Notes: a model not told the origin generated them from the letters alone. A stretch of 64,000 bases of DNA from a virus (IMGVR_UViG_3300045988_137032:160001-224000); one strand, 5' to 3'; shown: positions 7,554 through 44,824, numbered from the stretch's first letter. Translations and numbers: made by a program.

Positions 7554-8285
7554 ATGGGCGTATTTCGTAGCGATGGTAATAACATCTATCTGAATGCACC
7601 ATACTGTGAATTCTATATTCCGATGTATTATTTCGATTCATCAAAAACGAGTAGCTTCGCTGAAGATAATAACGAAACAATTCGAGTACTAGGTTTATTT
7701 GACGTTGGTGTTTTTGATGGTAGTGGAAAGCTTACTGAGATGAAGCTCTTCAACGTACCTACTATGGTCAACATCAACGTCTATGATAGCGAAGTTCGTG
7801 ATGTGAAACTTGGCAATGATGAAGTTACACAGTGTAAAGTTGTCAAGTATCTGAAAGATGCTAAGATTATGGTTTCCAGTACCGTTCAGGATGATGAAAA
7901 TTCAAAAGCTTATCTTCAGTATATCACTGGTGGTAATCTTCCTACTTTCATTCCATATTCAAAACTCCTTACTTTGTGGAGAAAGAATATGTCGTTGAAT
8001 GGAGTTTACTTTGGCGTTCCTTCTTGCTATCTGGAATTGATCCTAGCAGTTATGAATAGAAATCCTGCCGATCTGTCGCAGAAGTTTGCTACGATTGCAG
8101 GTAAAGAAAATGTAAGTGACTATGGTTATGCTACTGCATCCATTCGTCAGATTTGTCAGTATAACTCCACGTTTACTGCTCTTACTTACGAGGATATGGA
8201 TAGTATGATCACTTCTTCCCTTAATAGATCGAGGGAAAATAAGCAAGAAACCATTTCGCCAGTGGAACAGATTATTAAGTTTTGA
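7554..8285 (+). CDS. hypothetical structural protein
   Basis: 243-aa ORF with AAAGGAGAA RBS, immediately upstream of the sheath gene. Confidence 0.6.
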   Translation: MGVFRSDGNNIYLNAPYCEFYIPMYYFDSSKTSSFAEDNNETIRVLGLFDVGVFDGSGKLTEMKLFNVPTMVNINVYDSEVRDVKLGNDEVTQCKVVKYLKDAKIMVSSTVQDDENSKAYLQYITGGNLPTFIPYSKLLTLWRKNMSLNGVYFGVPSCYLELILAVMNRNPADLSQKFATIAGKENVSDYGYATASIRQICQYNSTFTALTYEDMDSMITSSLNRSRENKQETISPVEQIIKF

Positions 8286-8387
8286 AGCTTACAGCTTTGC
8301 AGCGTGAAAGCAATGAAAAACATGTTGCTTTCCGTTACATTTAACTAATCTGAATGATTTAAAATTCAAGAAAAGGAGTTGAGCGAT

Positions 8388-10331: not shown

Positions 10332-10358
10332 TACTAAGAAAGGAGCGTGAATTGAATT

Positions 10359-19215: not shown

Positions 19216-20523
19216 ATGATTAAGCGTAATAATGAAATCGTTGCAACTGCTGATCAGAATATTACGATTACGCAGGCTGAATACAATAAACTCACTAACA
19301 CAGAGAAGAATAATCCTCTGAAGACTTACTTCATCTCCGATGGAGCTGTTGCTGCAGACGCGGCTTCTTCTACTTATTCTATGATGGCGGGTCGTCGGGC
19401 TATGGCTACGTACGCGAGTCTTTCGTCTGCTGAGAGCGATGATGTAGATCCAATCGATGATGCTGCTGGCGTTACTGGTGCTGAGAGTATTGAGTATACT
19501 GATACTGAGATTCTCGCACTGCGTCTGCAGGAACTGCTTGGTTATGCTCCAACTCTGGATGAGTATAGCGATACTGGCGATGGCACCATCATGGGCGCTA
19601 TTGTTGATCTGTATACACGTCTTGGTGTTAAGCCTACCAATCCGGATGTTGATCCTGCTGAGTACGAGGGCGTTACCATCTTCGATTATGTCAATCTGGT
19701 TGGCGATCCTACTATCCTTGCGAAATATGATATGCCGAACGTGACTGCTGCTCTGGCTGACATGTATACTCGTATGCAGGCCGCTGAGGAAGCAGCTAAG
19801 AAGAAGGAAGAGGAAGCCGCTGCTGCTGCGCAGAAGGCTAAGGAAGCTGAGGAAGCCGCAAAGGCTGCTGAAGCTGCTGCTAAGGAGAGAGAAGCTGAGG
19901 CTGAAGCTGCAAAGCAGAAAGCTATCGATGCTGAGAATAATGCTGCTGAGGCAACGAAGGCCGCTGCAGAAGCATCCATTAAGCAGATTGAGTATGTCAA
20001 TGCTGCTAAGGAAGCTGCTAAGAAGGCCCAGGCTGCCGCACAGAAGGCTGCTGATGATGCAACTGTTGCTGCTCAGAAGGCCGCCGAAGATGCCGCTGCT
20101 GAGCAGGAGGCTAAGCACATTGCTGCAGCTAAGGAAGCTGCAAGCCGTGCAGAATATGCTGCAACTAGCGCTGCTGCATCTGCTGAGTCTGCATCCAAGA
20201 TCGTTGATAAGCTGAAGGCTGACAACAACGTGACTGATGAGACTCCGAAGAAGGATGAGAATACCGATACAAAGACTCCTTCCGATACTGAGTCTACTGG
20301 TAATGAGCCCAGCAAAACCGAATCTGGTGAGAAGGGCAATACTACCGAGACAACTACTGAGGAAACAACCACTCCCAGCGAGTCTACCGAAACTGTGACT
20401 CCTTCTGAGTCAACTGGTAAGGAACCCTCTGGTGAAGTGACTGATACAACTTCCTCTGAGATCACTGGTGAGACTACTCCCGCTAAGGAAGATACCACCA
20501 GCCAGGATTCTTCTGCGGAATAA
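19216..20523 (+). CDS. low-complexity protein (Ala/Glu/Lys helix plus Thr/Glu/Ser tail)
   Basis: GAGGAGGTGA RBS. Has a central A/E/K-rich stretch of roughly 150 aa and a C-terminal T/E/S/P-rich tail. Confidence 0.6.
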   Translation: MIKRNNEIVATADQNITITQAEYNKLTNTEKNNPLKTYFISDGAVAADAASSTYSMMAGRRAMATYASLSSAESDDVDPIDDAAGVTGAESIEYTDTEILALRLQELLGYAPTLDEYSDTGDGTIMGAIVDLYTRLGVKPTNPDVDPAEYEGVTIFDYVNLVGDPTILAKYDMPNVTAALADMYTRMQAAEEAAKKKEEEAAAAAQKAKEAEEAAKAAEAAAKEREAEAEAAKQKAIDAENNAAEATKAAAEASIKQIEYVNAAKEAAKKAQAAAQKAADDATVAAQKAAEDAAAEQEAKHIAAAKEAASRAEYAATSAAASAESASKIVDKLKADNNVTDETPKKDENTDTKTPSDTESTGNEPSKTESGEKGNTTETTTEETTTPSESTETVTPSESTGKEPSGEVTDTTSSEITGETTPAKEDTTSQDSSAE

Positions 20524-28490: not shown

Positions 28491-30392
28491 TTAAGACTCA
28501 ACGTCTTCAGTTACAATTGGAGCTTCCTCCTCAGTAACTTCAGGTTCAGTTGTTTCAGCCGAAGTATCTTCAACTGTCTCAGATGCTACCGTATCAACGG
28601 GAGTATCCTGAGCGGTAACAGTAGCAGCTACCTCGGGCAGAGAAACTGTGACTGCCCATCCAATGTAGCTCTTACCATTAACTTCCTTAACGGAAGCACC
28701 AACAGCCATAGTTGCATCAGGACTGATACTATGAACGGTTTCACCCTGCTCAGAAATGAACTCCTTAGTCTTCTTATAAGCAAGAGAATTCAGAGTATCC
28801 TGAGTTACCTTATATGCAGGACCAATATTAGTATCCGTATCCAGATCAGTTGTGACCGTATAAATCGTCATGGTACATGCGTCAGCATGCTGACCATTTT
28901 CTACAGCTTCAGACCATGCATCGAACTTAGCCTGCTCATCTACTTCAAGAGGAGTAGCATTATTCAAGTTGATGTTACCAGAATAATCTACTGTACCAAG
29001 TACGGTATCAACCATAGAAGACAGGTTGGTATCAATATCCTTATCGGACTCAGCAAATGCCTTTGCAATCAGAGGCTCTGCCTGCTTAGACAGAGGAGGC
29101 TCAACTGTAGGAAGATCAATGATAACTGCCCAACCAATATATACCTTGCCCTTTGTCTCAACAACGCTACCAGCGAATGTAAAGTCAGCATCATCACATG
29201 TATCCAGGATAGTTTCAGTCTGCTCACTGATGAATTCCTTCGTCTTAGTGAACGGCAGAGACTTCACGGTATCTTCAGTAACATTGTATGCCATGCCGAC
29301 ATTCGTATCAAGATCAATATCCTGAGTCAGAGTATAGATAGTGATAGAGCAACCATCAGCATGCTCTTCATTGGAAACGGCTTCGCTCCACTTATTGAAC
29401 TTAGCCATCTCCATGTCCTCAAGTGGCTCAACGATATTCATGTTGAGCTTACCATCAGAAGTAACCTTCTTCAGGTACTGAGTAATCTTGGAAGCCAGCT
29501 CTTCATTATTGGACTTACCAGCTTCTTCAAATGCCTCAGTAAGATTTGCCTTAGCACGATCGATGAGCGGATCCTTCTTCGTCTTAGGCATATGAGGCAG
29601 ACTAATTTTAGCTACCCAGCCAACATACACAGTGCCATTGACTTCAACAACCTGTCCGCCGACTTCAACTGTAGCGTTCGGATGATATTTCTTAGCTTCA
29701 GATGTAATCTTATTGATATAGGCAACGGTCTTATCGTTACAGACGAAGTCAACGATACGATCATGTACCACATACGCCACACCAGCATCCGAAACCAGAT
29801 TGATCGACTGAGTAATGTTATAGTCGTAATAAGTGATAGCCTGAGCTTCTTCACCTTCTGCAACAGCAGAACGCCACTTATTAATCTTATTAATATCCTC
29901 ACGATAGTTAGGAATGGCCAGAGCATAGCTCAGAGTACCGGTGCTATATACATGAGGGATAGCATCTGATACGATCTTACCAAGTTCTGCACTATTGGCA
30001 GTCTTAGCTGCCGTAAAGCCAGCAGCCAATGCTTCCTTAGCACGCTCAAACAAAGACTTTGTAGGAGTCACAGGCTTAGAAGTATCGGGCTTCTTATCAG
30101 GCTTCTGTGACAGCCACTTCTCTTCATTGTCATAAGCTTCACGAGATTTAATGCACATAAAGATACGCACATTATTATCCATATCGTAATAGTTCTTTAC
30201 GATATCATATACCTCGTTTTTATAAATAACGAAAGACTGCATAGCGGAAGTGCCAGTCTTATCAGAAATACCGATTTCCCAATCGTCCGGGAAATCAACC
30301 ATCTCACCACGCATCTTATTGATGGCAACGAGACCATTACCCCACTCGTTATTCAAAGGATCGAGCAGGAGCAATTTCATAGGAACTGCCAT
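28491..30392 (-). CDS. protein with three tandem repeats of about 150 aa and an acidic Thr/Glu tail
   Basis: AAAGGAGAT RBS. Repeats lie at about residues 113-266, 275-428 and 439-586. They share KF(N/D)xWSEAV..HAD(G/A)C..TIYT(L/V)T.D.D.DTN.G.AY.VT.DT..SL..KTKEFISEQ.ET...G(K/T).Y(I/V)GW(A/V)...LP. Confidence 0.7.
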   Translation of the reverse strand: MAVPMKLLLLDPLNNEWGNGLVAINKMRGEMVDFPDDWEIGISDKTGTSAMQSFVIYKNEVYDIVKNYYDMDNNVRIFMCIKSREAYDNEEKWLSQKPDKKPDTSKPVTPTKSLFERAKEALAAGFTAAKTANSAELGKIVSDAIPHVYSTGTLSYALAIPNYREDINKINKWRSAVAEGEEAQAITYYDYNITQSINLVSDAGVAYVVHDRIVDFVCNDKTVAYINKITSEAKKYHPNATVEVGGQVVEVNGTVYVGWVAKISLPHMPKTKKDPLIDRAKANLTEAFEEAGKSNNEELASKITQYLKKVTSDGKLNMNIVEPLEDMEMAKFNKWSEAVSNEEHADGCSITIYTLTQDIDLDTNVGMAYNVTEDTVKSLPFTKTKEFISEQTETILDTCDDADFTFAGSVVETKGKVYIGWAVIIDLPTVEPPLSKQAEPLIAKAFAESDKDIDTNLSSMVDTVLGTVDYSGNINLNNATPLEVDEQAKFDAWSEAVENGQHADACTMTIYTVTTDLDTDTNIGPAYKVTQDTLNSLAYKKTKEFISEQGETVHSISPDATMAVGASVKEVNGKSYIGWAVTVSLPEVAATVTAQDTPVDTVASETVEDTSAETTEPEVTEEEAPIVTEDVES

Positions 30393-31263: not shown

Positions 31264-32058
31264 TTATTTCACAGGCTTATCCTTGCACCGAATATAAGGT
31301 TCGATGTAGATTACTCTGCCACTTTTGTAATGACGGAAGTGGCCCTTCACCGCATACTGGTGATCGATAGGGCCACGCCGACGATTGATGTTCGTATAGA
31401 TCGGAGACCGCTTCGTCTCATCAATCATGACGTTATCATATTTCTCCGACAGTTCCCGATGATGAATGACCGGCTTCCTAGGCCCATTAGAAGCCGAGTC
31501 ATTCTGATACGCATGGATAGTTCTCCGCCTCATCACACTGAGCAGCATAATGGCAATGAAGTCCATGATCTCTCCGGTTACGATGTCAATAATCTCATTG
31601 CGTGCCATGCCGAGCTTCTCATTCGGTTTCATAGTAGCACGCCTAAAGTATGGGTTATTCAAAAGACCATGCCGAAGACCCTTAATGGTCGTATTCTTTC
31701 CAAGTTCAAATCGGATGATTGTATTATAACAACCTTGAGAAACTTTAAGGACGTCGTCAAACATATAAAGATCAATCAACACCGTATGCTTGTACTGATC
31801 TACAACATAACGAATGATGGTCTCTTTGTTGTTGTAACGGAAGAGACCGTGCTTAACCTTAGACTTCTCAGCGATGTCGTAGATCATACTACCAAGGTCG
31901 ACATTGTAGGAAGGCTTTCCAAGTGTATCACAGAGTACATCAAGCATGCTATCAAACCACATACGAATATACTCGACAGTAGTTTCATTCTCAATAACGA
32001 TGCTCTGGGCAAGTAATAACTCCTGTGCGCTAAGGGTATTCAGATAATAACCGGACAT
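31264..32058 (-). CDS. hypothetical protein, paralogue B (C-terminal GHFRHYKSGRVIYI motif)
   Basis: Leader AAAGGAGAGTGTAGAAACAATG is nearly identical to that of the upstream paralogue. C-terminal motif is shared. Confidence 0.65.
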   Translation of the reverse strand: MSGYYLNTLSAQELLLAQSIVIENETTVEYIRMWFDSMLDVLCDTLGKPSYNVDLGSMIYDIAEKSKVKHGLFRYNNKETIIRYVVDQYKHTVLIDLYMFDDVLKVSQGCYNTIIRFELGKNTTIKGLRHGLLNNPYFRRATMKPNEKLGMARNEIIDIVTGEIMDFIAIMLLSVMRRRTIHAYQNDSASNGPRKPVIHHRELSEKYDNVMIDETKRSPIYTNINRRRGPIDHQYAVKGHFRHYKSGRVIYIEPYIRCKDKPVK

Positions 32059-32088: not shown

Positions 32089-33009
32089 TTAATCGATGTT
32101 TGCCACGTAGTCTTTCGGCTTACGAGGTTTACCAACGCAATTGAGGTGCTCGTTGATCCAAATGACTTTGCCACTTTTATAGTGACGCCAATGGCCACGA
32201 GTGGTAAATTCAAACTGACGAGGACCAACTTTTCTCTGAAGTTTAATTTTCGGGATCTCATCGTCTTTCCTAAGATTGACGGTATAGATATTCCGGATCA
32301 GAGGAACTCTACTACGAGCGTTCTTTGATTTCTTCTTTCCACCCTTCTTCTCCTGATTAAGGCTAACTACATTTTTGCTTGAGATAATGTAGTTTTCCTT
32401 ATTGATTAATGCCAGATATTCGATTCCTAAAAGACCATATGCAATGCGCATAACCACATTGGAATAGCTTTCCTCAAGAGAATCTATGATTTCATCAGCT
32501 GAGACATGTCTCTTTTTAGCTTCGGCCTTTAAAGCGTTATTGAAGAATTCTTCATTGAATGGATTCAGAGTGGAATAGATTGCGTTGTTGCTGCCAATTT
32601 TCTTGGTATCTTCTTCGTTGTCGAACTCGATACAGAGTACGGTTCTGCAAGCTACATCACGGCACACTTTCCCATAACGAGTTCCTCTTGTCAAGTAATC
32701 AATCGTGAGATGTGCACCAGCATGTTCATCTCCGAAAACCTCGGCCGGATTCGTAAAGAATGCGAAGAGATATTCCGTATCAATACCGTCATCTTCAGAA
32801 AACGGATCTTTCTTCGCAAACTTAAGAACACCAGATGTGATTGGAATATGGTCCAGGGATTTGAAGATGTTGATCAGTGTTGACGGATTGTCTGGATCGT
32901 TACAGACAACAGAGAACAGCTTGTTGAAGTCTTCCTCGTCTTTCACGATCACACGATCTACCTTATCAGCAAGATCAAAATAGGACTTGATATCAATATT
33001 TTCAGCCAT
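32089..33009 (-). CDS. hypothetical protein, paralogue A (C-terminal GHWRHYKSGKVIWI motif)
   Basis: Leader AAAGGAGAGTGAAGAAACAATG. Basic linker KKGGKKKSKNARSR followed by the shared motif. Confidence 0.65.
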   Translation of the reverse strand: MAENIDIKSYFDLADKVDRVIVKDEEDFNKLFSVVCNDPDNPSTLINIFKSLDHIPITSGVLKFAKKDPFSEDDGIDTEYLFAFFTNPAEVFGDEHAGAHLTIDYLTRGTRYGKVCRDVACRTVLCIEFDNEEDTKKIGSNNAIYSTLNPFNEEFFNNALKAEAKKRHVSADEIIDSLEESYSNVVMRIAYGLLGIEYLALINKENYIISSKNVVSLNQEKKGGKKKSKNARSRVPLIRNIYTVNLRKDDEIPKIKLQRKVGPRQFEFTTRGHWRHYKSGKVIWINEHLNCVGKPRKPKDYVANID

Positions 33010-33062
33010 TGTTTCTTCACTCTCCTTTATTTTTTTTACTATTTCTACGGCTTACTTACATT

Positions 33063-33072
33063 TATAATATAT
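33063..33072 (+). promoter_or_regulatory. core-only copy (TATAATATAT)
   Basis: 54 nt upstream of 32089-33009(-). Confidence 0.45.
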
Positions 33073-33094
33073 AATCAAAAATTAAGTTGATACG

Positions 33095-33140
33095 TACAAA
33101 AAAGAAAGAGTAGCTAGAAGCCAATCACTACTCTTTCTTT
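33095..33140 (-). terminator. terminator
   Basis: Stem AAAGAAAGAGTAG / CTACTCTTTCTTT with a T run on the minus strand. The loop carries the 15-nt sequence repeated (inverted) at 33425-33439. Confidence 0.7.
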
Positions 33141-33150
33141 CAATCTGAAC

Positions 33151-33327
33151 TTAGCTCATGATCGGATACAGATAGCTATATCCGTTATCATTTACAAAGT
33201 TAATCAGATTTTTATCCAATCCTTTTCTGATAAGGATGTGCACCTCATCAGAAGTAATAGGATAATACCTACCAAGTACAACAGACCTGGTATCATCGTT
33301 GATGGCGATTTCGGAAAGTTTATGCAT
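33151..33327 (-). CDS. 58-aa hypothetical protein (below the ORF-track cut-off)
   Basis: ATG 33327 lies 8 nt after GAAAGGAT. Sequence MHKLSEIAINDDTRSVVLGRYYPITSDEVHILIRKGLDKNLINFVNDNGYSYLYPIMS. Terminator at 33095-33140. Confidence 0.4.
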   Translation of the reverse strand: MHKLSEIAINDDTRSVVLGRYYPITSDEVHILIRKGLDKNLINFVNDNGYSYLYPIMS

Positions 33328-33399
33328 AAATATCTATCCTTTCTAATTAAATTTAGAGAATCAATACTTTCATAAACTTTCTCCTTGTGGCTTCATGAA

Positions 33400-33417
33400 T
33401 ATAATATATCATTATAT
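33400..33417 (+). promoter_or_regulatory. AT motif copy 4
   Basis: Divergent spacer between the small ORF 33151-33327(-) and the RNAP-fragment operon(+). Confidence 0.6.
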
Positions 33418-33448
33418 TCTTAATTGATTGGCTTCTAGCAATACTTTA

Positions 33449-33506
33449 AATAGACTAGGCTGCTTAATTCATCCTGAAAACAGAATGGTAAGCAGCCTAG
33501 TCTATT
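33449..33506 (+). promoter_or_regulatory. 18-bp perfect stem-loop in the 5' leader of the RNAP-fragment operon
   Basis: AATAGACTAGGCTGCTTA (33449-33466) pairs with TAAGCAGCCTAGTCTATT (33489-33506) around a 22-nt loop. Lies between the AT motif and the RBS. Confidence 0.6.
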
Positions 33507-33540
33507 ATTTATCAATATAAAGAAAGGAGACACATTACGT

Positions 33541-34269
33541 ATGGCTATGACTCCTCAAAAACGTAAAAAGATGGAAGATATCATCTATAAGACGTTTAAT
33601 GCTCTGGATAAAACCGGATCAAATACAAAGCACTACAAGTCAGTCTTTAGTGCTATGAGTGATAATCAGTTTGATAAGTTCTTCAAAAACTTCTTCGCTG
33701 ATCCAAGTAAGTATCTGATTCTCACTGTGTGTGATTATCAGATTGACCTAAAGATGGATGACATTGAAGATGCAGCAAAAGTTCTTGGAGTTCCGCTCTT
33801 TGAACGAGTTGCATTTCCTCACTATACGATGGATAAGAAAAATATCATCGTATCAAAAGAAGCAGTTCCTGTTGGATACTGCCATATAAAACGTACCCAG
33901 CAGACAGTTGCTAAGAAGAATGGCCTTTCTACAACAGCAGATGCTCGTTCTTCTCTGACAGGTCAGGTTACTGGTGCTGATAAGAATGGCCGTGAATCCG
34001 ATATCGAGAACTACATGATGATCAGTCTGAATATGAAGGATACCTTGAAAGAACTCAATGGTCCTCGTGCAGATGATATGCATATGAAGCAGCAGATGTA
34101 CACAGCCATCAATACAAAGGGCTATATTACCATGGATGACATGGAATCTGCTCCTGAGAATAAAACAACTCTGAGTACAGTTGATGTATATCTGCTTGGT
34201 ATGGGATTGAATTCTGACCTGATCACTCGTGGTCTGATGACCAATAAGACTCTGAAGGAGGATGCATAA
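33541..34269 (+). CDS. multisubunit RNA polymerase beta-subunit C-terminal fragment (beta-like)
   Basis: AAAGGAGAC RBS. VGYCHIKRTQQTVAKKNG..ARSSLTGQVTGADKNGRESDIENYMMIS..TLKELNGPRADD..QQMY aligns by eye with bacterial beta (iGymYmlKL.HlVdDK.HARS.G.ys.vTqQPlgGKaqfGGQRfGEMEvwAL..LqE.lT.KSDD..gR..Y). Confidence 0.5.
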   Translation: MAMTPQKRKKMEDIIYKTFNALDKTGSNTKHYKSVFSAMSDNQFDKFFKNFFADPSKYLILTVCDYQIDLKMDDIEDAAKVLGVPLFERVAFPHYTMDKKNIIVSKEAVPVGYCHIKRTQQTVAKKNGLSTTADARSSLTGQVTGADKNGRESDIENYMMISLNMKDTLKELNGPRADDMHMKQQMYTAINTKGYITMDDMESAPENKTTLSTVDVYLLGMGLNSDLITRGLMTNKTLKEDA

Positions 34270-34270
34270 T

Positions 34271-35491
34271 ATGCCGTATCCTGCTAGAAAGATTACTGAA
34301 GATGAGAAGAAATATCTTCTCTCTTTGAAGCCTGAAGATCTCACATTCTCATGCCTTGTAGGTTTATTCGGTGATACAACCGATTCCGATAATGCATTCA
34401 AAGGTGTGAAGAAATCTCGGTTTAATACTTGGGATGAGATGACTCTCATGCCAAATGAATACTTCGTGAAAGAAAAGACTGTCACTACAGTTGGTAGATT
34501 CATCTTCAATAAATACCTCATTGAACGATTTGGTTTCCAGGATGTACTCGGTTATGAAAATAAACCTGTTACTCAGGATGAGTATGATTCTCTGGAAGGT
34601 AGAATGACAAAGGCTATTATTGAAGATAAGATTAGTCTGGATGCTTTCTACAGCTATATCGATTACCGTGATACATTGGGTATGCAGCTCAACTCAGTTA
34701 TCACAACTTCCTTTAGTCCGAAGACAGTCTCTCTTCCTCCGGATATTCGAAAGAAGAGAGACGAACTCTTTGCAAAGAATAAGGAAGCTCTTGATAAGGG
34801 TGATATCATCGTTTCTCAGAAGATTGAGAAAGAACTTGTTTCAGATGCAAAGAAAGCACTGGGTGATGATCCCGGTATGGATCTATATAACTCTGGTGCT
34901 CGTGGTAACTTCGGTAACTACAAGAATATGATGCTCTATAAGGGAGCAACCATGAATAATATCACCGGTGAGTATGAAATCATTCGGTCTTCGTTCATGG
35001 ATGGTATCTCAAAGCAAGACATTCCTGCCTTCGGTACTTCGGTTGTTTCCGGTGCTTATCCTAAAGCAGTTGGTACTGGTGTTTCTGGCTATCTCACAAA
35101 GCAGCTTCTGGCAGCTATGCAGGCCGAGGTTCTCGATGAGCATGGAAGTGACTGCGGAACAAAGAAAACGATTGCATATATCATGACACCGAAGGATGTA
35201 CGTGATTTTGAGTATCGGTATATCGTAGTAAATGGGAAATATGTATGTCTTACTCCTGACGTAATTGGTAATTACGTTGGTAAAGTAATTCAGCTTAGAA
35301 CTCCCATGTATTGCACTGGTAAGCACGTTTGCAATATCTGTGCAGGCGAACTGAATTATCGACTCAATAATAAATACATCGGACTTGGTTGTCCTATCAT
35401 TTCTGGTAAACTGCTTAATATGGGTATGAAGAAATTCCATACTTCCAATATTAAGACAAGTCAAATCAATCCTGACGATATCCTGATTTAA
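34271..35491 (+). CDS. multisubunit RNA polymerase beta-prime fragment (bridge-helix region to start of trigger loop)
   Basis: ATG 34271 lies 10 nt after AAGGAGG. TTVGRFIFNKY, NSGARGNFGNYKNMMLYKGATM, VSGAYPKAVGTGVSGYLTKQLLAAMQ..DCGT, LRTPMYC..VCNICAG and MGMKKFHTSN follow, in order, bacterial beta-prime TTvGR, SGARGS..QlaGMRGLM, THGARKGLADTALKTAnSGYLTRRLVDVaQ..DCGT, vRS...C..CYG and TFHxGG. Confidence 0.65.
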   Translation: MPYPARKITEDEKKYLLSLKPEDLTFSCLVGLFGDTTDSDNAFKGVKKSRFNTWDEMTLMPNEYFVKEKTVTTVGRFIFNKYLIERFGFQDVLGYENKPVTQDEYDSLEGRMTKAIIEDKISLDAFYSYIDYRDTLGMQLNSVITTSFSPKTVSLPPDIRKKRDELFAKNKEALDKGDIIVSQKIEKELVSDAKKALGDDPGMDLYNSGARGNFGNYKNMMLYKGATMNNITGEYEIIRSSFMDGISKQDIPAFGTSVVSGAYPKAVGTGVSGYLTKQLLAAMQAEVLDEHGSDCGTKKTIAYIMTPKDVRDFEYRYIVVNGKYVCLTPDVIGNYVGKVIQLRTPMYCTGKHVCNICAGELNYRLNNKYIGLGCPIISGKLLNMGMKKFHTSNIKTSQINPDDILI

Positions 35492-35523
35492 ATAATCCTT
35501 ACTGGAAAGAGAGGTGATATAGT

Positions 35524-36810
35524 TTGGATTCAAAGAGACTTCATGAATATGATCTAACCAATGATGAACGTCATGATCTTATCTATGGTCATCCTCAGCA
35601 TTACATTCAAGCGCAGACTTCTGCTGCTCATACCTTTGGTAATGTAACTGCATTCGTTCAGAATTGGCTAATCAATCTATTCCCTCAGGACTTTTTTAAG
35701 ACAATTCATGTCAATAGTAAGATTGCTCATGCTCAGATGCGTAGCACTCCGAAAGAATTCTTAAAGAAACAGCCACCCATGTTTGTTATTCGTCCTAGAA
35801 TTGACTGGGATGATGACAACCGTTTCTTACGTGGAACTCCATTGATTGAACGTCAAGGAGATCTCTATATGATGAATGGTATGACAAACTTACAGGATTT
35901 CATCTTTGATAGAAATTCAAGAGCTTGTATTAAGTACCAGATGAATCGTAGTGTCATTAACTTCGATGTCATTCTGATCTTCAATACCATGATTCAACAG
36001 ATCAACTGGGCAAACTACTTCAAGAATATGGTACGGTATGAGATTCCGTTCAATCTTCAGACATGTCTTGAAAGTTTTATCCCAAGAGATCTTCTTGCAG
36101 AATATTCCAAACTCATCAAAATTCCTATGGAAGATGAGAATGGTAGTAATGCAAAATTCCTTCATTATCTGAATTCTACTTCATCTCTACCCATCACATA
36201 TAAGCTGAAAGGTTCAACTGGTCATGATGAATACTATCGATATTATCCCGTTAATATTGATACGATCATTACGAACTTCTCAGTAGACGATGGTGAGAAA
36301 GCTGGACAGATTGGGGATCTCTATAAGATTACCTTCAGTATGAGATGTGAATTCTATAGTACGGGATTCTATTACATCTTCTGTGATGATATTAAGAAGA
36401 ATAGTATCATTACATGCGATGATAGTGGTAGTACGATTATTCCAATTTTCACTGATGTACTTACGGAAGATGATACGAATCTTCCTCTTGGCTGGAGTCT
36501 ATATGCTTCTCCGTCTTGTAGATTGGAGAAACCAGATGATGAAGTTGATCTATCCAGTCTATTCAATGATAGCTTGAAGAAGACTTTGAATTGGCATTTT
36601 GAACGTGGAATGACAACACAAGACTTCTTTAAGATGAGAGTAAGAAAGCAAGGAAGACTTATGGTTCCTGATAAGGATTACTCCTTTGACTTCAATACTC
36701 TCACTATGAAATTTCATAACCAAAATCCGTATTATACTTATAAGATCATTATTCTCGTCAATGTGGATTACATCAATAATCTTATCAAAGAGATTTATAA
36801 TCTTAAGTAA
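35524..36810 (+). CDS. hypothetical protein (last gene of the RNAP-fragment operon)
   Basis: TTG start after AGAGAGGTGA. 428 aa with no RNAP motif recognised. Terminator at 36822-36864. Confidence 0.6.
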   Translation: MDSKRLHEYDLTNDERHDLIYGHPQHYIQAQTSAAHTFGNVTAFVQNWLINLFPQDFFKTIHVNSKIAHAQMRSTPKEFLKKQPPMFVIRPRIDWDDDNRFLRGTPLIERQGDLYMMNGMTNLQDFIFDRNSRACIKYQMNRSVINFDVILIFNTMIQQINWANYFKNMVRYEIPFNLQTCLESFIPRDLLAEYSKLIKIPMEDENGSNAKFLHYLNSTSSLPITYKLKGSTGHDEYYRYYPVNIDTIITNFSVDDGEKAGQIGDLYKITFSMRCEFYSTGFYYIFCDDIKKNSIITCDDSGSTIIPIFTDVLTEDDTNLPLGWSLYASPSCRLEKPDDEVDLSSLFNDSLKKTLNWHFERGMTTQDFFKMRVRKQGRLMVPDKDYSFDFNTLTMKFHNQNPYYTYKIIILVNVDYINNLIKEIYNLK

Positions 36811-36821
36811 AATTACGGCAG

Positions 36822-36864
36822 AAGACGTACTACGTAAATATTTCATTACGTAGTACGTCTTTTA
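36822..36864 (+). terminator. terminator
   Basis: 16-bp stem AAGACGTACTACGTAA / TTACGTAGTACGTCTT followed by TTAT. Confidence 0.75.
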
Positions 36865-37266
36865 TATATAAACCGCCCAACTATAAAATCACCATGTTAT
36901 ATAGTTGGCAGCGGAGTACAGATAGAATTTGAAAGCTTTGAGACTATAAAGTCTCTGCACGAAGATGCTCTTTTACGCTGTGTGCGGTCTATACATATGA
37001 TGTATATGACACATAACCAAGAGCGCCGCAAAAATGATGTCCACTATTTATCAAAGGAGGCATAAAACATGAAAGTGTCCCGTTTCATATCAAGAGGCTA
37101 TTCAACATGTATAACCAAAACTACTCTCTTATCAAAACATGTATAAGCTCAACAAATTCAATCTGACCTAAGAACATTCTTCATTAGACTCAAGCCGAGT
37201 TACTAACATGTTATCCCCCAAGAAACTATTCTATAGCATTTTACCCCAGAGAGGAATGATAGAATT

Positions 37267-39885
37267 ATGAAAATTACTTATTTGAAACTCACGAACTTCA
37301 TCAATATCGTGACCGCATTTAAGACGGAAACGATTGAGATTGATTTTAGCGAAGCAAAGAATGACGTAATTCTTCTCACAGGTCCAAATGGATCTGGTAA
37401 AACCAGTATTTTAAGTTGCTTACATCCATTTGCTACAAATGGCAATTTGGATGTTCGAGATAGTAATCCTCTGATCGTTGCCAAGAAAGATGGATATAAA
37501 GAAATCCATATTGAGAATGGCAACGATCTTTATATCATTCAGCACTTTTATACTCCAAAATCTCCTGAAGGATTTATCATCAAGAGCTATATTCAGAAGA
37601 ATGGGTTAGAGCTGAATGGAAATGGTAACGTCACATCGTTTAAAGAGATAATCCAAAAAGAACTTGGTATCGAAATGGATTATATGAAATTAACTCGACT
37701 CGGAAGTAATGTGACAAACTTCATTGATATGAAGAAAACAGATAGAAAGAATTTCACTGGTAAGATTATCAGTGAAGCAGATATCTATCTGACATATTAT
37801 AAGAAAATAATGGGCGATCGTCGTAAAGTACAAGTAGCCATGGCTCATACAACAGACATGATTACGAGATTGCATATTGACGATATTGATGCATTGAAAG
37901 AAGCTCAGAATTCTATTAAGAATCAGATACGAGATTACGACGATGCTATTACGAAAGCCCAGAAAGAATTAAGCGTGTATCAGTATCAACTCGATGAATG
38001 TGGAAACTTATTTGATCTCCGTTCTCAATTGACTGATAAAGAAAAAGAGCTGAAGCATATCAAGAAAGTACTTGCTAAAGTAAGTGATGAATCTATGGAT
38101 CTGGATAAGCTAAAAGCAAGTCTGGAAAAATGTAAGATTGAACTTATTAAAGCAAAATCAAATCTTGATAATATGAAGCTTTCTCGTACCAATTTAATCA
38201 ATCAATTGGATAGTGTCATCAGTGAGATTGATGATGTTGCAAGAGAGATTGATCGAATTGATAATGACCAAAATCTCAAAGACATGGAGCATATCATTGA
38301 ATCCTTGAGAGAGAAAATTCAAAAGCGTGCTCATGAATCTGGATTGGCTGGATATATTTCTCCATGTTCAAAAGCTCAATTGGAAGAATTCATTAATGCT
38401 ATGGATAGCGCAATGGATATTCTAATGACAACGTATGAACTTGGTAAAGGACCTATTGAGAAAGCTATTTCCTTTATTCATACGAATACGGATGCTGATG
38501 AATACGCAAGAAAGAATTCTGAGAAAGTTAAGAAGAATCGAATGCAAGCTCTTTGTGAGCAAGTATACGCAGAGATCTCGAAAGGTCTTGGTGTAATCAC
38601 TCCCGATTGCAAAGACTATACTGGATGTCCTGTATATAACTTCTATCAGATTCTTTATGACTATGCTTCTCAGAGTCCTGATAAAGTAGTTGAAGATGAA
38701 ACCTTTGTAGCTTATACAAAGATGGCTTCTGCTAATATTCGTAAGGTATTACGAATCATCAAGAACTACAGCGAGCTTTATGATGAAGGAAGCATCATGC
38801 CAGATGCCATCAAGAAGCATTTCACACAAGAAGCAATCTTATCTCGTATTGCAAACATGCAATGGATTTATGATAAGAATCTTTTGTATGGAGAACTCAG
38901 TATCATTACGGAATATGAACTCCAGCAAGCTGATTTGGAAGAACTCCGTAAGCAAAAAGAAATGTATCGGAAGTATAAAGAAGCAAATAGCAATAGTGAA
39001 TACTTCCATACAAAGATGTCTGAATTACAGGATAAGAAAACAGACATCTCGTATCAGCTTGGTACAGTAAGAGCTGATATTTCCTCTACAGAAGAAAAGA
39101 TTGATAATCTCACTGAGTATATCAGTGAGACGGAAGATATCATTTCTTCTATGGAAGAAAAAGATACTATTGAATCTGATTGGGAAGAATTATCCAATAA
39201 GGTAGTATTAGCATCCGATCTTTCTAGTAAAGTAAAGACTATGAATGATAGAATTGCTACCATTCAGTATTCTCGTACTAAGCTTGATAAAGATTATCAA
39301 AATAACGAATATAGGATTAAGTCCTATAAGGAATTGACTAAGGAGCTTAAGAAGCAAAATGAGTCCTTTATGGATCTCGATTACCTTAGTAAAGCATTAT
39401 CCAGCAAAGAAGGAATTCCACTTATTTTCATCCAAGCCTATTTGAAAGATATTAAAGATATCGCTAATAATCTTTTAGATGTTGTGTATAATGGAGATCT
39501 CAGGCTTGCTGAATTTGAAATCAGTGCAGATGAATTTGGTATTCCGTATATTACAAAAGGAGCTAAAGTAAAAGATGTTGTATATGCTAGTCAAGGTGAA
39601 CGTAGTTTCATTTCTCTTGCATTATCTTTTGCTTTGACATGTAGAAGTCTTTCCAGTTACAATATCATGCTATTGGATGAGATTGATTCTACACTGGATA
39701 CATCGAATCGTGAGAAGTTCTTACGTGTACTTGAAATGCAGATTGAAATGATTCATGCAGAGCAGGTATTCGTAATCTCTCACAACGACATGTTTAATGC
39801 ATATCCTGTGGATATCGTAGATACCAAAGGTCAAAAGAATAAGAATGCCGAACTTGCTTCTTATATCAAGATTATAAAATCGTGA
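37267..39885 (+). CDS. SbcC/Rad50-like SMC-family ATPase
   Basis: Walker A LLTGPNGSGKTSIL. Charged coiled-coil-like middle of roughly 600 aa. ABC signature SQGERSFISLALSFAL, Walker B MLLDEIDSTLD, H-loop FVISHN. Confidence 0.8.
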   Translation: MKITYLKLTNFINIVTAFKTETIEIDFSEAKNDVILLTGPNGSGKTSILSCLHPFATNGNLDVRDSNPLIVAKKDGYKEIHIENGNDLYIIQHFYTPKSPEGFIIKSYIQKNGLELNGNGNVTSFKEIIQKELGIEMDYMKLTRLGSNVTNFIDMKKTDRKNFTGKIISEADIYLTYYKKIMGDRRKVQVAMAHTTDMITRLHIDDIDALKEAQNSIKNQIRDYDDAITKAQKELSVYQYQLDECGNLFDLRSQLTDKEKELKHIKKVLAKVSDESMDLDKLKASLEKCKIELIKAKSNLDNMKLSRTNLINQLDSVISEIDDVAREIDRIDNDQNLKDMEHIIESLREKIQKRAHESGLAGYISPCSKAQLEEFINAMDSAMDILMTTYELGKGPIEKAISFIHTNTDADEYARKNSEKVKKNRMQALCEQVYAEISKGLGVITPDCKDYTGCPVYNFYQILYDYASQSPDKVVEDETFVAYTKMASANIRKVLRIIKNYSELYDEGSIMPDAIKKHFTQEAILSRIANMQWIYDKNLLYGELSIITEYELQQADLEELRKQKEMYRKYKEANSNSEYFHTKMSELQDKKTDISYQLGTVRADISSTEEKIDNLTEYISETEDIISSMEEKDTIESDWEELSNKVVLASDLSSKVKTMNDRIATIQYSRTKLDKDYQNNEYRIKSYKELTKELKKQNESFMDLDYLSKALSSKEGIPLIFIQAYLKDIKDIANNLLDVVYNGDLRLAEFEISADEFGIPYITKGAKVKDVVYASQGERSFISLALSFALTCRSLSSYNIMLLDEIDSTLDTSNREKFLRVLEMQIEMIHAEQVFVISHNDMFNAYPVDIVDTKGQKNKNAELASYIKIIKS

Positions 39886-42958: not shown

Positions 42959-44725
42959 TTAGGAATTTGAGTCAGTAGATTCGGAATCTTTTGCTTCCTT
43001 ATTCTCATTGTCATTTCCCTGAGTCATATCCTCAGTATTCTCGACAACGATCTCATACTTCTCACGAGAAGTACCATTGACTGTGAACGAACCACGGTTA
43101 AACTCAGAGAGCTTATTCAGCAACGCATAGTATTCTTCCTTCGTATCGCAATTGATCTTGATGTATTCATAATGCTCTTCAGCCATGACATGCTCAAGAT
43201 CTTTTGCATATTCGAATCGGAATGCATCGGTCTCATTGGATTCATCAAAATAGAATCCTTTGATCTTACCGAACGGAGTCAGGACACCAGAAGTACCAGG
43301 GTCAGAGTTACCGCAAACAAGTAAGTCGATATTACCGAGGAAGCTCGGATGAGAACCACGATAACGAATCGAGATGTTGTTGGAATTCTTTCCACCCATA
43401 GAGTGGGGTCCCTTGATTGTATACTTGAACTTGCTGAAGAAGTCCATGTCGTTCATGTTATCGTTAAACCGGAGAATACCAGAAGAATGCATCTTCTGAA
43501 TCAGAATCTCACCAGTGAAACGGAACATGTTCGTGAAGTTATCCATGGTTGCTTTATTGCCAAGGGTAATCACAGAGTTAAGTCTGGAGGAGAAGTCCAA
43601 AGTCAGAAGAGATGCGATGTATTCATTACAACGCAGTCTCTTATTATCCAGACTCATATTATCCTTCAAACGAAGAGTACCAAAGTTCTGCATCATCCAA
43701 CGAAGGACTGCATAGATATCATTCTTCTCGTAATCATCCAGTTTCAGAATCTTACGAGTGGTAACATCTATCAGTCGATTGAAGAAGACCAGAATGTCTT
43801 CCCCCTTCTCAACCGTGTTGTTATTGGAAAGGGACTTGATCCAAACCGTCTTGTCATGGAAATCCTTAATCGTGGTACGAGAATTACTGACGGTAAGAAG
43901 ACCGCCAATAATAGACTGGATATAAGGATACTTCATGAACAACTCACGGTTGACTTCAACGAAGCAATGACTGGAAATTTGGAAATAGATATTCCGAGTT
44001 TCATCAGCATCAGAAAGATCCTTCTTCAGAGAAACGATATTATCTACTTCCAGATAGCTCATTGCCCATTCCCAACCATTTGCCAGATAGAACAGCATGA
44101 TGGGAATTTCTTTACGGAACACAAAGACATTATAGACGGGGATATTGTACTCAACACCAGCAATATCCTTGCCACCAGTCTCACTGCGTACCATCTCATC
44201 AGCCTTGATACCATTTCGCTTCACGCAGATAGGCATCAAAGACTTCAGAGTAACTGCATTATTCGAAGTATAGGTAGACTTATCAACCAGCTGATAGATC
44301 ATGTAATACTTCTTGCCACGGATATAGAAGAAGCCATCATCATCCTGAATCGGAATCAGCATCTGCTTGATGATTCGCTTCCTATGGATTTTCGGTTCAT
44401 CCGGATTCTTTGTATCCGTTTCTTTCACAGTAACCTCAATGGTAACTGTGAGACAACCACAACGGTCGTCATTGATGAACTTATAATCGAATCGATCCTT
44501 CTTACGCTTCTTCTTTTCACGCTTGAAGATGTGGTTATTGATATCGATCGTGGCTTCGTTATCATTCCACTTAAATCCGATGATTTGAATATTCTTAACG
44601 ATTTCGAGGCTACGCCAGACATCCTTGATGTACTCAACGAGAGGAAGATCAGCTTCCTTATTCATCAGAGGCACATTCAATTCTTTCTCAAATTCTGACG
44701 TATACTCACCGATATACTTGAGCAT
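42959..44725 (-). CDS. multisubunit RNA polymerase beta-subunit N-terminal fragment
   Basis: ATG 44725 follows AAGGAGGACGAAAGT. DDDGFFYIRGKKYYMIYQLV corresponds to bacterial beta FIINGtERViVsQL. IRYRGSHPSFLGNIDLLVCGNSDPGTSGVLTPF corresponds to RDvHpSHYGRiCPiETPEGpNiGLi. Confidence 0.7.
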   Translation of the reverse strand: MLKYIGEYTSEFEKELNVPLMNKEADLPLVEYIKDVWRSLEIVKNIQIIGFKWNDNEATIDINNHIFKREKKKRKKDRFDYKFINDDRCGCLTVTIEVTVKETDTKNPDEPKIHRKRIIKQMLIPIQDDDGFFYIRGKKYYMIYQLVDKSTYTSNNAVTLKSLMPICVKRNGIKADEMVRSETGGKDIAGVEYNIPVYNVFVFRKEIPIMLFYLANGWEWAMSYLEVDNIVSLKKDLSDADETRNIYFQISSHCFVEVNRELFMKYPYIQSIIGGLLTVSNSRTTIKDFHDKTVWIKSLSNNNTVEKGEDILVFFNRLIDVTTRKILKLDDYEKNDIYAVLRWMMQNFGTLRLKDNMSLDNKRLRCNEYIASLLTLDFSSRLNSVITLGNKATMDNFTNMFRFTGEILIQKMHSSGILRFNDNMNDMDFFSKFKYTIKGPHSMGGKNSNNISIRYRGSHPSFLGNIDLLVCGNSDPGTSGVLTPFGKIKGFYFDESNETDAFRFEYAKDLEHVMAEEHYEYIKINCDTKEEYYALLNKLSEFNRGSFTVNGTSREKYEIVVENTEDMTQGNDNENKEAKDSESTDSNS

Positions 44726-44824
44726 ACTTTCGTCCTCCTTGAAAAAATAATGGGCCCACATGATTCTTTATAGATTCTTCATGTGAGCCCATCGTATTAC
44801 CGTTATGGGATACTCAGGTTAAAA

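What the first reader, a model, noticed from the sequence alone, without database searches (positions are those of the whole stretch)
33541..36810. Operon encoding very short beta C-terminal and beta-prime bridge-helix fragments of a multisubunit RNAP, followed by an unassigned 428-aa protein
ORF 33541-34269 (242 aa) matches by eye only the last roughly 130 residues of bacterial beta (ARS..TGQ..G..K.G...diE......LkEl.gprADD). ORF 34271-35491 (406 aa) covers beta-prime from the TTVGR element through SGARG, the bridge helix (GAxxxxxxTxxxxSGYLTxxL) and DCGT, then stops right at the TFHxGG-like start of the trigger loop (KKFHTSN). The beta catalytic elements (NMQRQ, GYNxED, RHGNKG) were not seen in any listed ORF of this window. 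The beta-prime NADFDGD motif and the post-trigger-loop part were not seen either. Split beta and beta-prime genes are established for phiKZ- and AR9-like jumbo phages. However, these break points differ from what I remember for those phages: a beta tail of only 242 aa, and a beta-prime piece cut at the trigger loop. The co-transcribed 428-aa ORF 35524-36810 is a candidate extra subunit or unrelated cargo.
Basis: partly seen in the sequence, partly recalled or inferred. Interest (0 to 1): 0.7.

Follow-up and report, generated by a model that had tools for sequence, protein, structure and literature searches.

The report
Jumbo-phage virion RNA polymerase pieces
Two adjacent genes of an uncultured human-gut jumbo phage encode the standard small beta-C-terminal and middle-beta-prime pieces of the five-piece virion RNA polymerase already known from phiKZ/AR9/SPN3US-type phages, and the third gene is a tail-terminator (neck) protein, so the finding is real but ordinary.

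Summary
The 242-aa protein is homologous to the last ~100 residues of bacterial beta (E. coli beta 1222-1314). The 406/409-aa protein covers beta-prime from TTVGR through SGARG, bridge helix and DCGT, and ends just after the first trigger-loop helix (..KKFH.. = E. coli MRTFH936). The break points are not unusual. They are the canonical ones of the jumbo-phage virion RNAP (vRNAP), published as five polypeptides. SPN3US has betaC gp218 (222 aa) and beta'M gp42 (431 aa). AR9 gp078 C-domain/gp264 and phiR1-37 g203/g231 are the orthologues. Both window proteins match the corresponding PHROG families end to end. The 428-aa protein is not an RNAP subunit. Its AlphaFold model matches the phiKZ neck terminator (9XPS chain w, E 1e-13) and T4 gp15, so it is a tail terminator. 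The genes are under strong purifying selection (dN/dS 0.01-0.04). The window also holds the vRNAP beta'C piece (7554-8285) and a non-virion RNAP betaN piece (42959-44761, minus strand). The catalytic N-beta and N-beta' pieces lie outside the window. The source is a ~261-kb AR9/phiR1-37-related phage from human-gut metagenomes. Verdict: new member of a known kind, low interest.

The parts
33449..33506 (.). Perfect 18-bp inverted repeat (22-nt loop), 35 nt upstream of the betaC start codon. It lies in the divergent intergenic region. Its function is unknown (insulating terminator or 5'-leader structure).
   Evidence: I1; MFE fold; conserved in the close relatives L004/L005; L014 has a different hairpin plus T-run at the same place
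33541..34269 (+). vRNAP betaC subunit (242 aa). It is homologous to bacterial beta conserved region I (E. coli beta 1222-1314). It is the orthologue of SPN3US gp218, phiR1-37 g203 and the C-terminal RNAP domain of AR9 gp078, and it lacks the HD domain of the Bacillus/Staphylococcus versions.
   Evidence: (phrog_3233 E 1e-40, 2-223/225); dN/dS 0.031
34271..35491 (+). vRNAP Mid-beta' subunit (406 aa; the longest ORF starts at 34262). It carries TTVGR, SGARG, bridge helix, DCGT and the first trigger-loop helix (..MKKFH..). It is the orthologue of AR9 gp264, phiR1-37 g231 and SPN3US gp42. It is translationally coupled to betaC (1-nt gap, AAGGAGG RBS).
   Evidence: (phrog_2962 E 4.9e-71, 31-430/433); dN/dS 0.043
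35524..36810 (+). Tail terminator / neck protein (428 aa, TTG start with GAGGTGA RBS). It is the orthologue of AR9 g251 and of phiR1-37 g272, which is a structural protein. It has the fold of phiKZ gp98 and T4 gp15.
   Evidence: (phrog_21946); dN/dS 0.013
36822..36861 (+). Perfect 16-bp hairpin (8-nt loop) followed by TTTTATATAT, 12 nt after the stop of the 428-aa gene. It is the probable intrinsic terminator of the three-gene unit.
   Evidence: I2; a hairpin plus T-run at the same position in L004, L014, L015 and L016, with unrelated sequences
7554..8285 (+). vRNAP beta'C candidate (243 aa). It belongs to the same PHROG family as SPN3US gp244, the published beta'C, and AR9 virion protein g125. 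It lies downstream of the terminase gene, as in AR9.
   Evidence: (phrog_2926 E 7e-24, 22-240/241). Direct tests against beta-prime were inconclusive.
42959..44761 (-). Non-virion RNAP beta N-terminal subunit (600 aa). It belongs to the second polymerase of the phage and is not part of the virion enzyme.
   Evidence: phrog_2943; AR9 nvRNAP chain 7s00_c, E 1.4e-53; phiKZ gp123 in the same PHROG

Best explanation
The locus is a late, virion-protein transcription unit of an uncultured ~261-kb human-gut jumbo phage related to AR9, PBS1, phiR1-37 and Staphylococcus S6. Its first two genes encode two of the five canonical polypeptides of the virion-packaged multisubunit RNA polymerase. BetaC (242 aa) supplies the C-terminal conserved region of beta. 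Mid-beta' (406 aa) supplies the secondary-channel rim, the bridge helix and the first trigger-loop helix. They assemble with N-beta, N-beta' (encoded outside the window) and beta'C (7554-8285) into an enzyme that is packaged in the head. That enzyme is ejected with the DNA and transcribes the early genes. The third gene encodes the tail terminator, a hexameric neck protein that caps the tube and sheath. It shares the unit only because it is another late structural gene. Shown here: the homologies, family memberships, fragment boundaries, purifying selection, gene junctions and terminator hairpin. Inferred from relatives: packaging, early-gene transcription, hexamer formation and late timing.
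For: End-to-end PHROG matches to the vRNAP betaC and beta'M families. These families also contain AR9 gp264, phiR1-37 g231/g203 and Erwinia gp201. The AR9 GenBank notes label gp264 and the RNAP domain of gp078 as virion RNAP subunits. phiR1-37 g203, g231 and g272 are annotated as structural proteins. The five-piece vRNAP is published, with betaC at 222 aa and beta'M at 431 aa. Direct homology was found to beta 1222-1314 and to beta-prime 715-822 plus 871-936. Cyanobacterial RpoC2 134-227 aligns to query 210-304, which places the N-terminal boundary at the cyanobacterial-type split. The 428-aa model (pLDDT 73, pTM 0.61) matches phiKZ neck 9xps_w at E 1e-13. It also matches T4 gp15 (9mkb_AB at E 3e-5; 4huh at prob 0.99), E217/Pa193 neck proteins, T5 p142 and lambda gpU. 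It matches gp15-type 'tail sheath stabilizer' models in BFVD. Chain w (539 residues) fits phiKZ terminator gp98 (542 aa). dN/dS is 0.031, 0.043 and 0.013 against a 96%-identical contig. RBS, coupling and terminator signals support one unit. A second (nvRNAP) subunit and beta'C in the same window show the two-polymerase system.
Against: Pfam gives no hit above threshold for any of the three proteins. The betaC-to-PDB profile E-value is only 0.0019, and the trigger-loop part of the beta-prime alignment scores only 1.7 bits. No sequence-level similarity links the 428-aa family to phiKZ gp98 or to any PDB chain, so the terminator call rests on a medium-confidence model. The AR9 orthologue g251 is annotated 'putative membrane protein' and not 'virion protein'. 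N-beta and N-beta' were not seen because only 64 kb of the genome is available. No expression or proteomic data exist for this phage.
Confidence: 0.88

Rival explanations
1. The fragments represent a new split architecture of a phage multisubunit RNAP, with break points not seen in phiKZ/AR9-type phages.
For: Compared with the better-known four-piece non-virion enzyme, a 242-aa beta tail and a beta-prime piece cut inside the trigger loop do look odd. Pfam does not recognise them.
Against: SPN3US betaC is 222 aa and beta'M is 431 aa. phiR1-37 g203 is 248 aa, Erwinia gp201 is 223 aa and AR9 gp264 is 401 aa. Family-profile matches are end to end. The review describes the same five pieces.
Confidence: 0.03
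2. The 428-aa protein is an additional vRNAP subunit or promoter-specificity factor, analogous to AR9 gp226 or phiKZ gp68 of the non-virion enzyme, co-expressed with its partners.
For: It has a 32-nt gap with no terminator after Mid-beta' and a shared terminator after the 428-aa gene. Its phiR1-37 homologue g272 is a virion protein lying two genes after an RNAP gene, g274. No vRNAP has been purified, so extra subunits remain possible.
Against: The top structural matches are tail-terminator and neck proteins from six or more unrelated phages. None of the 50 best hits is an RNAP or sigma chain. The AR9 orthologue is g251, not g226. In L014 two opposite-strand genes separate it from Mid-beta'. 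In L015 and L016 it has no RNAP neighbour, while SbcC linkage persists in L014 and L016.
Confidence: 0.05
3. The two RNAP ORFs are decaying remnants made redundant by full-length beta and beta-prime genes elsewhere in the genome.
For: Only 64 kb of a ~261-kb genome was seen, so full-length genes elsewhere cannot be formally excluded.
Against: dN/dS is 0.03-0.04. Hundreds of full-length homologues at 60-99% identity occur on 210-295-kb contigs. The catalytically relevant residues are conserved (SGARG, bridge helix, M-K-x-F-H). No known phage of this group has unsplit genes.
Confidence: 0.01
4. The two fragments belong to the non-virion (late) RNAP rather than the virion enzyme.
For: Both enzymes are split beta/beta-prime homologues, and the window does contain an nvRNAP piece.
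Against: The nvRNAP beta'C family (phrog_3015, 653 positions) is matched only over 250-350, at E 7e-11, against E 5e-71 end to end for the vRNAP family. In each cultured genome the only tblastn match is the virion subunit. nvRNAP has four pieces, with no separate Mid-beta'.
Confidence: 0.03

Closest known systems
Salmonella phage SPN3US virion RNAP (gp218 betaC 222 aa, gp42 beta'M 431 aa, gp244 beta'C 240 aa, gp240 beta'N, gp241 betaN; Thomas et al. 2016, PMC5105663)
   Same: It has the same five-piece architecture, the same piece sizes and the same boundaries (beta cut ~120 residues from its C-terminus; beta-prime cut after the DPBB and inside the trigger loop). The window's 243-aa ORF shares phrog_2926 with gp244.
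   Different: Sequence identity is very low (about 25% for betaC with SPN3US-like phages). In SPN3US the subunit genes are scattered, whereas here betaC and beta'M are adjacent and translationally coupled.
Bacillus phage AR9/PBS1 virion RNAP subunits gp078 (C-terminal RNAP domain) and gp264
   Same: These are the closest cultured relatives (37-40% identity) and are full-length orthologues. The terminase-to-beta'C gene order is also shared.
   Different: AR9 gp078 carries an N-terminal HD phosphohydrolase domain, is proteolysed and is interrupted by introns. The window's betaC is a free-standing 242-aa protein without introns, like phiR1-37 g203. The AR9 genes lie about 158 kb apart.
Yersinia phage phiR1-37 g203, g231 and g272
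   Same: It has a free-standing betaC (248 aa), a Mid-beta' (424 aa) and a homologue of the 428-aa protein. All three are annotated as structural proteins in the phiR1-37 record.
   Different: Identity is 20-33%, and the three genes are dispersed in phiR1-37.
Tail terminator proteins: phiKZ gp98 (PDB 9XPS), T4 gp15, T5 p142, lambda gpU
   Same: The predicted fold of the 428-aa protein matches them (E 1e-13 for phiKZ; prob 0.99-1.0 for T4 gp15). Like phiKZ gp98, it is much larger than the gp15/gpU core.
   Different: No sequence-level similarity was detected. TM-scores are modest (0.36-0.44 to 9xps_w), so extra domains differ. The oligomeric state and position in the virion are untested.
Cyanobacterial split beta-prime (RpoC1/RpoC2) and the lineage-specific insertion site in the trigger loop (E. 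coli SI3)
   Same: Mid-beta' begins where RpoC2 begins. It ends at the trigger-loop tip, the place where E. coli and cyanobacteria tolerate large insertions (the SI3 position is from general knowledge).
   Different: Here the trigger-loop tip is a chain break and not an insertion. There are no alpha or omega homologues in these phages.

Membership tests
Jumbo-phage vRNAP betaC (phrog_3233; SPN3US gp218 type) | Full-length match to the family profile, with a size of about 220-250 aa | tested here: met
   E 1e-40, residues 5-228 on profile 2-223/225. phiR1-37 g203 and Erwinia gp201 fall in the same family. Sizes are 222-248 aa.
Jumbo-phage vRNAP betaC (phrog_3233; SPN3US gp218 type) | Homology to the C-terminal conserved region of cellular beta | tested here: met
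   The profile hits only beta chains, E. coli beta 1220-1314, E 0.0019 against PDB. The domain i-E-value is 4.9e-8 against E. coli RpoB/RpoC alone.
Jumbo-phage vRNAP betaC (phrog_3233; SPN3US gp218 type) | Protein present in the virion head | not testable with these tools
   Only by analogy: AR9 gp078 RNAP domain and phiR1-37 g203 are virion proteins according to their records; SPN3US gp218 was detected by mass spectrometry.
Jumbo-phage vRNAP Mid-beta' (phrog_2962; SPN3US gp42 / AR9 gp264 type) | Full-length match to the family profile, about 400-430 aa | tested here: met
   E 4.9e-71, 13-406 on 31-430/433. AR9 gp264 and phiR1-37 g231 fall in the same family.
Jumbo-phage vRNAP Mid-beta' (phrog_2962; SPN3US gp42 / AR9 gp264 type) | Contains SGARG, bridge helix and DCGT, starts at the cyanobacterial-type split and ends inside the trigger loop | tested here: met
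   Alignments to B. subtilis and E. coli beta-prime. RpoC2 134-227 aligns to query 210-304. The trigger-loop segment alignment is weak (1.7 bits) but colinear.
Complete five-piece vRNAP | N-beta (~1,400 aa), N-beta' (~520 aa, DFDGD) and beta'C (~240 aa) encoded in the same genome | tested here: inconclusive
   A beta'C candidate is present in the window. No DFDGD motif or large beta ORF occurs in the 64 kb. The rest of the ~261-kb genome was not available.
Tail terminator (T4 gp15 / phiKZ gp98 / lambda gpU) | Terminator fold | tested here: met
   Foldseek: 9xps_w E 1e-13 prob 1.0; 9mkb_AB (272 aa, the length of T4 gp15 as I recall it) E 3e-5; 4huh prob 0.99; T5 p142 and lambda gpU lower in the list. 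The model has pLDDT 73.
Tail terminator (T4 gp15 / phiKZ gp98 / lambda gpU) | Sequence-level family membership | tested here: not met
   The profile against PDB sequences gives nothing. hhalign against phiKZ gp98 gives prob 0.1. PHROG phrog_21946 has no assigned function.
Tail terminator (T4 gp15 / phiKZ gp98 / lambda gpU) | Hexamer capping the tail tube/sheath in the virion | not testable with these tools
   phiR1-37 g272 is a structural protein. AR9 g251 is not flagged as a virion protein.
RNAP accessory/specificity subunit (AR9 gp226 / phiKZ gp68 type) | Orthology or structural similarity of the 428-aa protein to gp226/gp68 or sigma-like folds | tested here: not met
   The AR9 orthologue is g251. 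No RNAP or sigma chain is among the 50 best structural matches, although the AR9 nvRNAP holoenzyme is in PDB.
Jumbo-phage non-virion RNAP beta'C (phrog_3015) | Single ~650-aa piece carrying bridge helix, complete trigger loop and C-terminus | tested here: not met
   Only a partial match, 275-371 on profile 250-350/653, E 6.7e-11.

The most novel reading that the evidence does not exclude
In this gut-phage subclade the betaC and Mid-beta' genes have been brought together and are translationally coupled, and they share a transcription unit with the tail-terminator gene. This arrangement might be functional and not just a product of genome shuffling. For example, it might allow co-translational pairing of the two fragments that line the active-site cleft. 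It might also allow stoichiometric co-delivery with a neck protein that helps position or release the polymerase at ejection.
Probability: 0.05. Interest if true: 0.45.

Novelty: new member of a known kind. Interest (0 to 1): 0.2.

Why it matters
It matters little for RNAP biology. The fragments reproduce the established five-piece virion RNAP of phiKZ/AR9/SPN3US-type jumbo phages. The useful outcomes are practical. First, three unannotated proteins of a widespread, uncultured human-gut jumbo-phage clade (hundreds of relatives on 210-295-kb contigs) receive functions. Second, PHROG phrog_21946 ('unknown function', including AR9 g251 and phiR1-37 g272) can now be read as the tail terminator of the AR9-like group. 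Third, the window documents that the two-polymerase, host-RNAP-independent transcription strategy exists in human-gut phages.

Tried and rejected
- Pfam scan of the three proteins: nothing above threshold; only RNA_pol_Rpb1_4 at E 0.063.
- Megablast of the locus against 50,697 phage genomes: no match.
- Single-sequence phmmer of the 242-aa and 428-aa proteins against PDB: nothing.
- Profile of the 428-aa family against PDB sequences, and hhalign against phiKZ gp98 and gp99: no signal.
- For the beta'C candidate, four direct tests gave nothing usable:
  - Profile against PDB: nothing.
  - hhalign against SPN3US gp244: only E 0.08.
  - HMMER against E. coli RpoC: nothing.
  - Foldseek of its model (pLDDT 67): no significant hit, although about 13 of the 50 weak hits are beta-prime chains. 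The assignment therefore rests on shared PHROG membership.
- Sigma-70 promoter and simple terminator scans of 32900-37400: no enrichment over shuffles.
- Rfam and tRNA scans of the window: empty, so no group I introns of the AR9 kind.
- I suspected a split or intron-bearing terminase (ORF 3025-5217). It aligns over residues 14-618 to the SPN3US terminase, so it is intact.
- I first recalled phiKZ gp123 as a beta C-terminal piece. The alignment to AR9 nvRNAP and the AR9 paper point to betaN.
Full report
**1. Observation**

The three plus-strand ORFs exist: 33541-34269 (242 aa), 34262-35491 (409 aa as the longest ORF) and 35524-36810 (428 aa, TTG start). The junction sequence shows the stop of the first gene (TAA, 34267-34269), an AAGGAGG box and an ATG at 34271. 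Gene calls on two near-identical metagenome contigs also give 406 aa. The third gene follows after 32 nt, with a GAGGTGA box before its TTG. Twelve nucleotides after its stop lies a perfect 16-bp hairpin followed by TTTTATATAT. A hairpin plus T-run sits at the same position after the homologous gene in four relatives, with unrelated sequences. This supports a real terminator and a three-gene unit in this phage.

**2. Are they RNAP fragments?**

Pfam finds nothing above threshold, but PHROG profiles match both proteins end to end:
- The 242-aa protein matches phrog_3233, E 1e-40, profile positions 2-223 of 225.
- The 409-aa protein matches phrog_2962, E 4.9e-71, positions 31-430 of 433.

Direct tests against cellular enzymes agree:
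- The second protein hits bacterial beta-prime chains in PDB (E 2.8e-6). The alignment shows TTVGR, SGARG, the bridge helix and DCGT.
- A small family profile aligns to E. coli beta-prime 715-822. It also aligns weakly but colinearly to 871-936, ending at MRTFH, the first trigger-loop helix.
- Cyanobacterial RpoC2 residues 134-227 align to query 210-304, so the conserved part begins where RpoC2 begins.
- For the 242-aa protein a single-sequence search fails. A 13-sequence profile hits only beta chains, 27 of 27, all at E. coli beta 1220-1314 (E 0.0019 against PDB; same segment).

**3. Are the break points unusual?**

No. [quoted passage not shown] It also states that the beta-prime split after the DPBB coincides with the cyanobacterial split (PMC7598289). 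Thomas et al. list the SPN3US pieces as betaC gp218 222 aa, beta'M gp42 431 aa, beta'N gp240 519 aa, betaN gp241 1,401 aa and beta'C gp244 240 aa. They place the 'missing' beta'C at about T. thermophilus beta-prime 1260-1524, just after the trigger-loop tip (PMC5105663).

The closest cultured relatives of the window proteins are these subunits:
- AR9 gp264 (401 aa), annotated 'virion RNAP subunit'.
- The C-terminal RNAP domain of AR9 gp078, an HD-hydrolase fusion that is proteolysed and intron-interrupted.
- phiR1-37 g231 and g203 (248 aa), both annotated as structural proteins.
- Erwinia phage EarlPhillipIV gp201 (223 aa).

These fall in the same two PHROG families. The non-virion beta'C family (phrog_3015) is matched only partially and far more weakly. 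The two ORFs are therefore ordinary vRNAP betaC and Mid-beta'.

**4. The 428-aa protein**

It matches phrog_21946 ('unknown function') end to end. That family contains AR9 g251 and phiR1-37 g272, and g272 is annotated as a structural protein. The family is large, with 512 representatives at 50% clustering.

An AlphaFold2 model built from 21 homologues has pLDDT 73 and pTM 0.61 and is beta-rich. Foldseek against PDB gives these matches:
- 9xps_w, 'neck structure of phage PhiKZ': E 1e-13, probability 1.0.
- A 272-residue chain of the T4 portal-neck-tail complex: E 3e-5.
- T4 gp15 tail terminator crystal structures: probability 0.99.
- E217 and Pa193 neck proteins, T5 p142 and lambda gpU.

BFVD adds PBS1 and phiKZ-group proteins and several 'tail sheath stabilizer and completion protein' entries. 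The phiKZ atlas paper describes the neck as stopper gp99, hexameric terminator gp98 ('larger' than in other myophages), whisker gp34 and gp144 (PMC13250141). PHIKZ098 encodes 542 aa, which fits the 539-residue chain w. Sequence-level comparisons give nothing, so this is a fold-level assignment.

I conclude that the protein is the tail terminator of the AR9-like group: a structural protein and not an RNAP subunit. Synteny agrees:
- L014 (67-73% identity) keeps betaC and Mid-beta', but two small opposite-strand genes separate them from the 428-aa homologue.
- In L015 and L016 the homologue has no RNAP neighbour.
- In L006 betaC stands alone.

**5. Are the genes functional?**

Against a 96%-identical contig, dN/dS is 0.031, 0.043 and 0.013 for the three genes. 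Hundreds of full-length homologues exist. They are not pseudogene remnants.

**6. Inventory of the window**

A six-frame scan finds no D[FY]DGD, NMQRQ-like or RHGNKG-like motif. No ORF exceeds 929 aa. The catalytic N-beta and N-beta' pieces therefore lie outside the 64 kb. Two further RNAP pieces are inside it:
- ORF 7554-8285 (243 aa) matches phrog_2926 end to end. SPN3US gp244 (E 1e-94) and AR9 virion protein g125 match the same family. Several Staphylococcus jumbo-phage records annotate the homologue as 'viral RNA polymerase beta-prime subunit'. It lies downstream of the terminase gene, as in AR9. My direct tests against beta-prime were inconclusive.
- ORF 42959-44761 (minus strand, 600 aa) matches chain c of the AR9 non-virion RNAP structure at E 1.4e-53. 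It shares phrog_2943 with phiKZ gp123. The aligned part includes the HPS..G....DPG.SG segment. By my own knowledge this resembles the fork-loop region of beta, so I read it as nvRNAP betaN (AR9 naming from PMC9209446).

The phage therefore has both polymerases.

**7. Source**

The window is 96% identical in DNA to a 261,029-bp contig from a Hadza/Nepal human-gut metagenome study. The nearest cultured phages share only about 32-40% protein identity. The rest of the window carries genes typical of this group: terminase, split family-B DNA polymerase, SbcC-like ATPase, NAD ligase, topoisomerase II, helicases, UvsX-like recombinase and prohead protease.

**8. Verdict**

This is a new, diverged member of a known kind. 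The only lineage-specific feature is the adjacency and coupling of betaC and Mid-beta', which are scattered in AR9, phiR1-37 and SPN3US.

Noticed in passing
window 7554-8285 (+): A 243-aa ORF falls in the same PHROG family (phrog_2926) as SPN3US gp244, the published vRNAP beta'C, and AR9 virion protein g125. Direct sequence and fold tests against beta-prime were inconclusive.
   Followed up: yes
window 42959-44761 (-): A 600-aa ORF is a subunit of the second, non-virion RNAP (AR9 nvRNAP chain 7s00_c, E 1.4e-53; same PHROG as phiKZ gp123). In the printed alignment AR9 gp105 R363 and K375, the residues lining the -10 deoxyuridine pocket, align to Ser396 and Asn408. Promoter recognition may therefore differ from AR9, but the alignment there is uncertain by a few residues.
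   Followed up: partly
window 2955, 13898, 26447, 33062, 33399, 45669, 48689, 53081, 55276 (11-mers): The motif ATATAATATAT (up to 1 mismatch) occurs 16 times against 4.6 expected (0 of 100 shuffles reach 16), at nine intergenic sites. Its reverse complement, ATATATTATAT, matches the core of the annotated AR9 early promoters (..ATATATTATA..). In that orientation the two copies at 33062 and 33399 would drive the minus-strand genes that diverge from the RNAP unit, and not the RNAP genes. That is consistent with the RNAP genes being late.
   Followed up: partly
window 33449-33506: A perfect 18-bp inverted repeat with a 22-nt loop lies between divergent genes, 35 nt before the betaC start. It is conserved in the near-identical contigs, and a different hairpin plus T-run occupies the same place in L014. 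Its purpose is unknown.
   Followed up: partly
window 31264-32058 (-) and 32089-33009 (-): These tandem genes of 264 and 306 aa share only a 41-residue C-terminal segment (44% identity, E 5e-11; ..RHYKSG.VI.I..). Both hit the C-terminal part of phrog_10678 (unknown function). They may be a diversifying paralogue pair.
   Followed up: partly
locus L006 10642-11793 (238-kb gut contig, betaC 63% identical): A relative of this phage encodes a tubulin-family protein (PF00091). This suggests PhuZ-like spindle or phage-nucleus biology somewhere in this gut clade.
   Followed up: no
window 5664-7466 (+), 8289-11078 (-), 19216-20523 (+), 28491-30392 (-): Four large ORFs (600, 929, 435 and 633 aa) have no PHROG match at E below 0.001. 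The 633-aa protein contains three internal repeats of about 150 aa that are visible in its translation (..KWS.AV...E.A..C.. / ..GKVYIGWA..).
   Followed up: no
whole window /: Each of the three proteins searched (242, 428 and 243 aa) has 177-485 homologues (E <= 0.001) in metagenome assemblies, on contigs up to 295 kb. The lineage is a large and apparently uncultured clade of jumbo phages. The two contigs traced for the closest relatives are a human-gut sample and one of unstated origin.
   Followed up: partly
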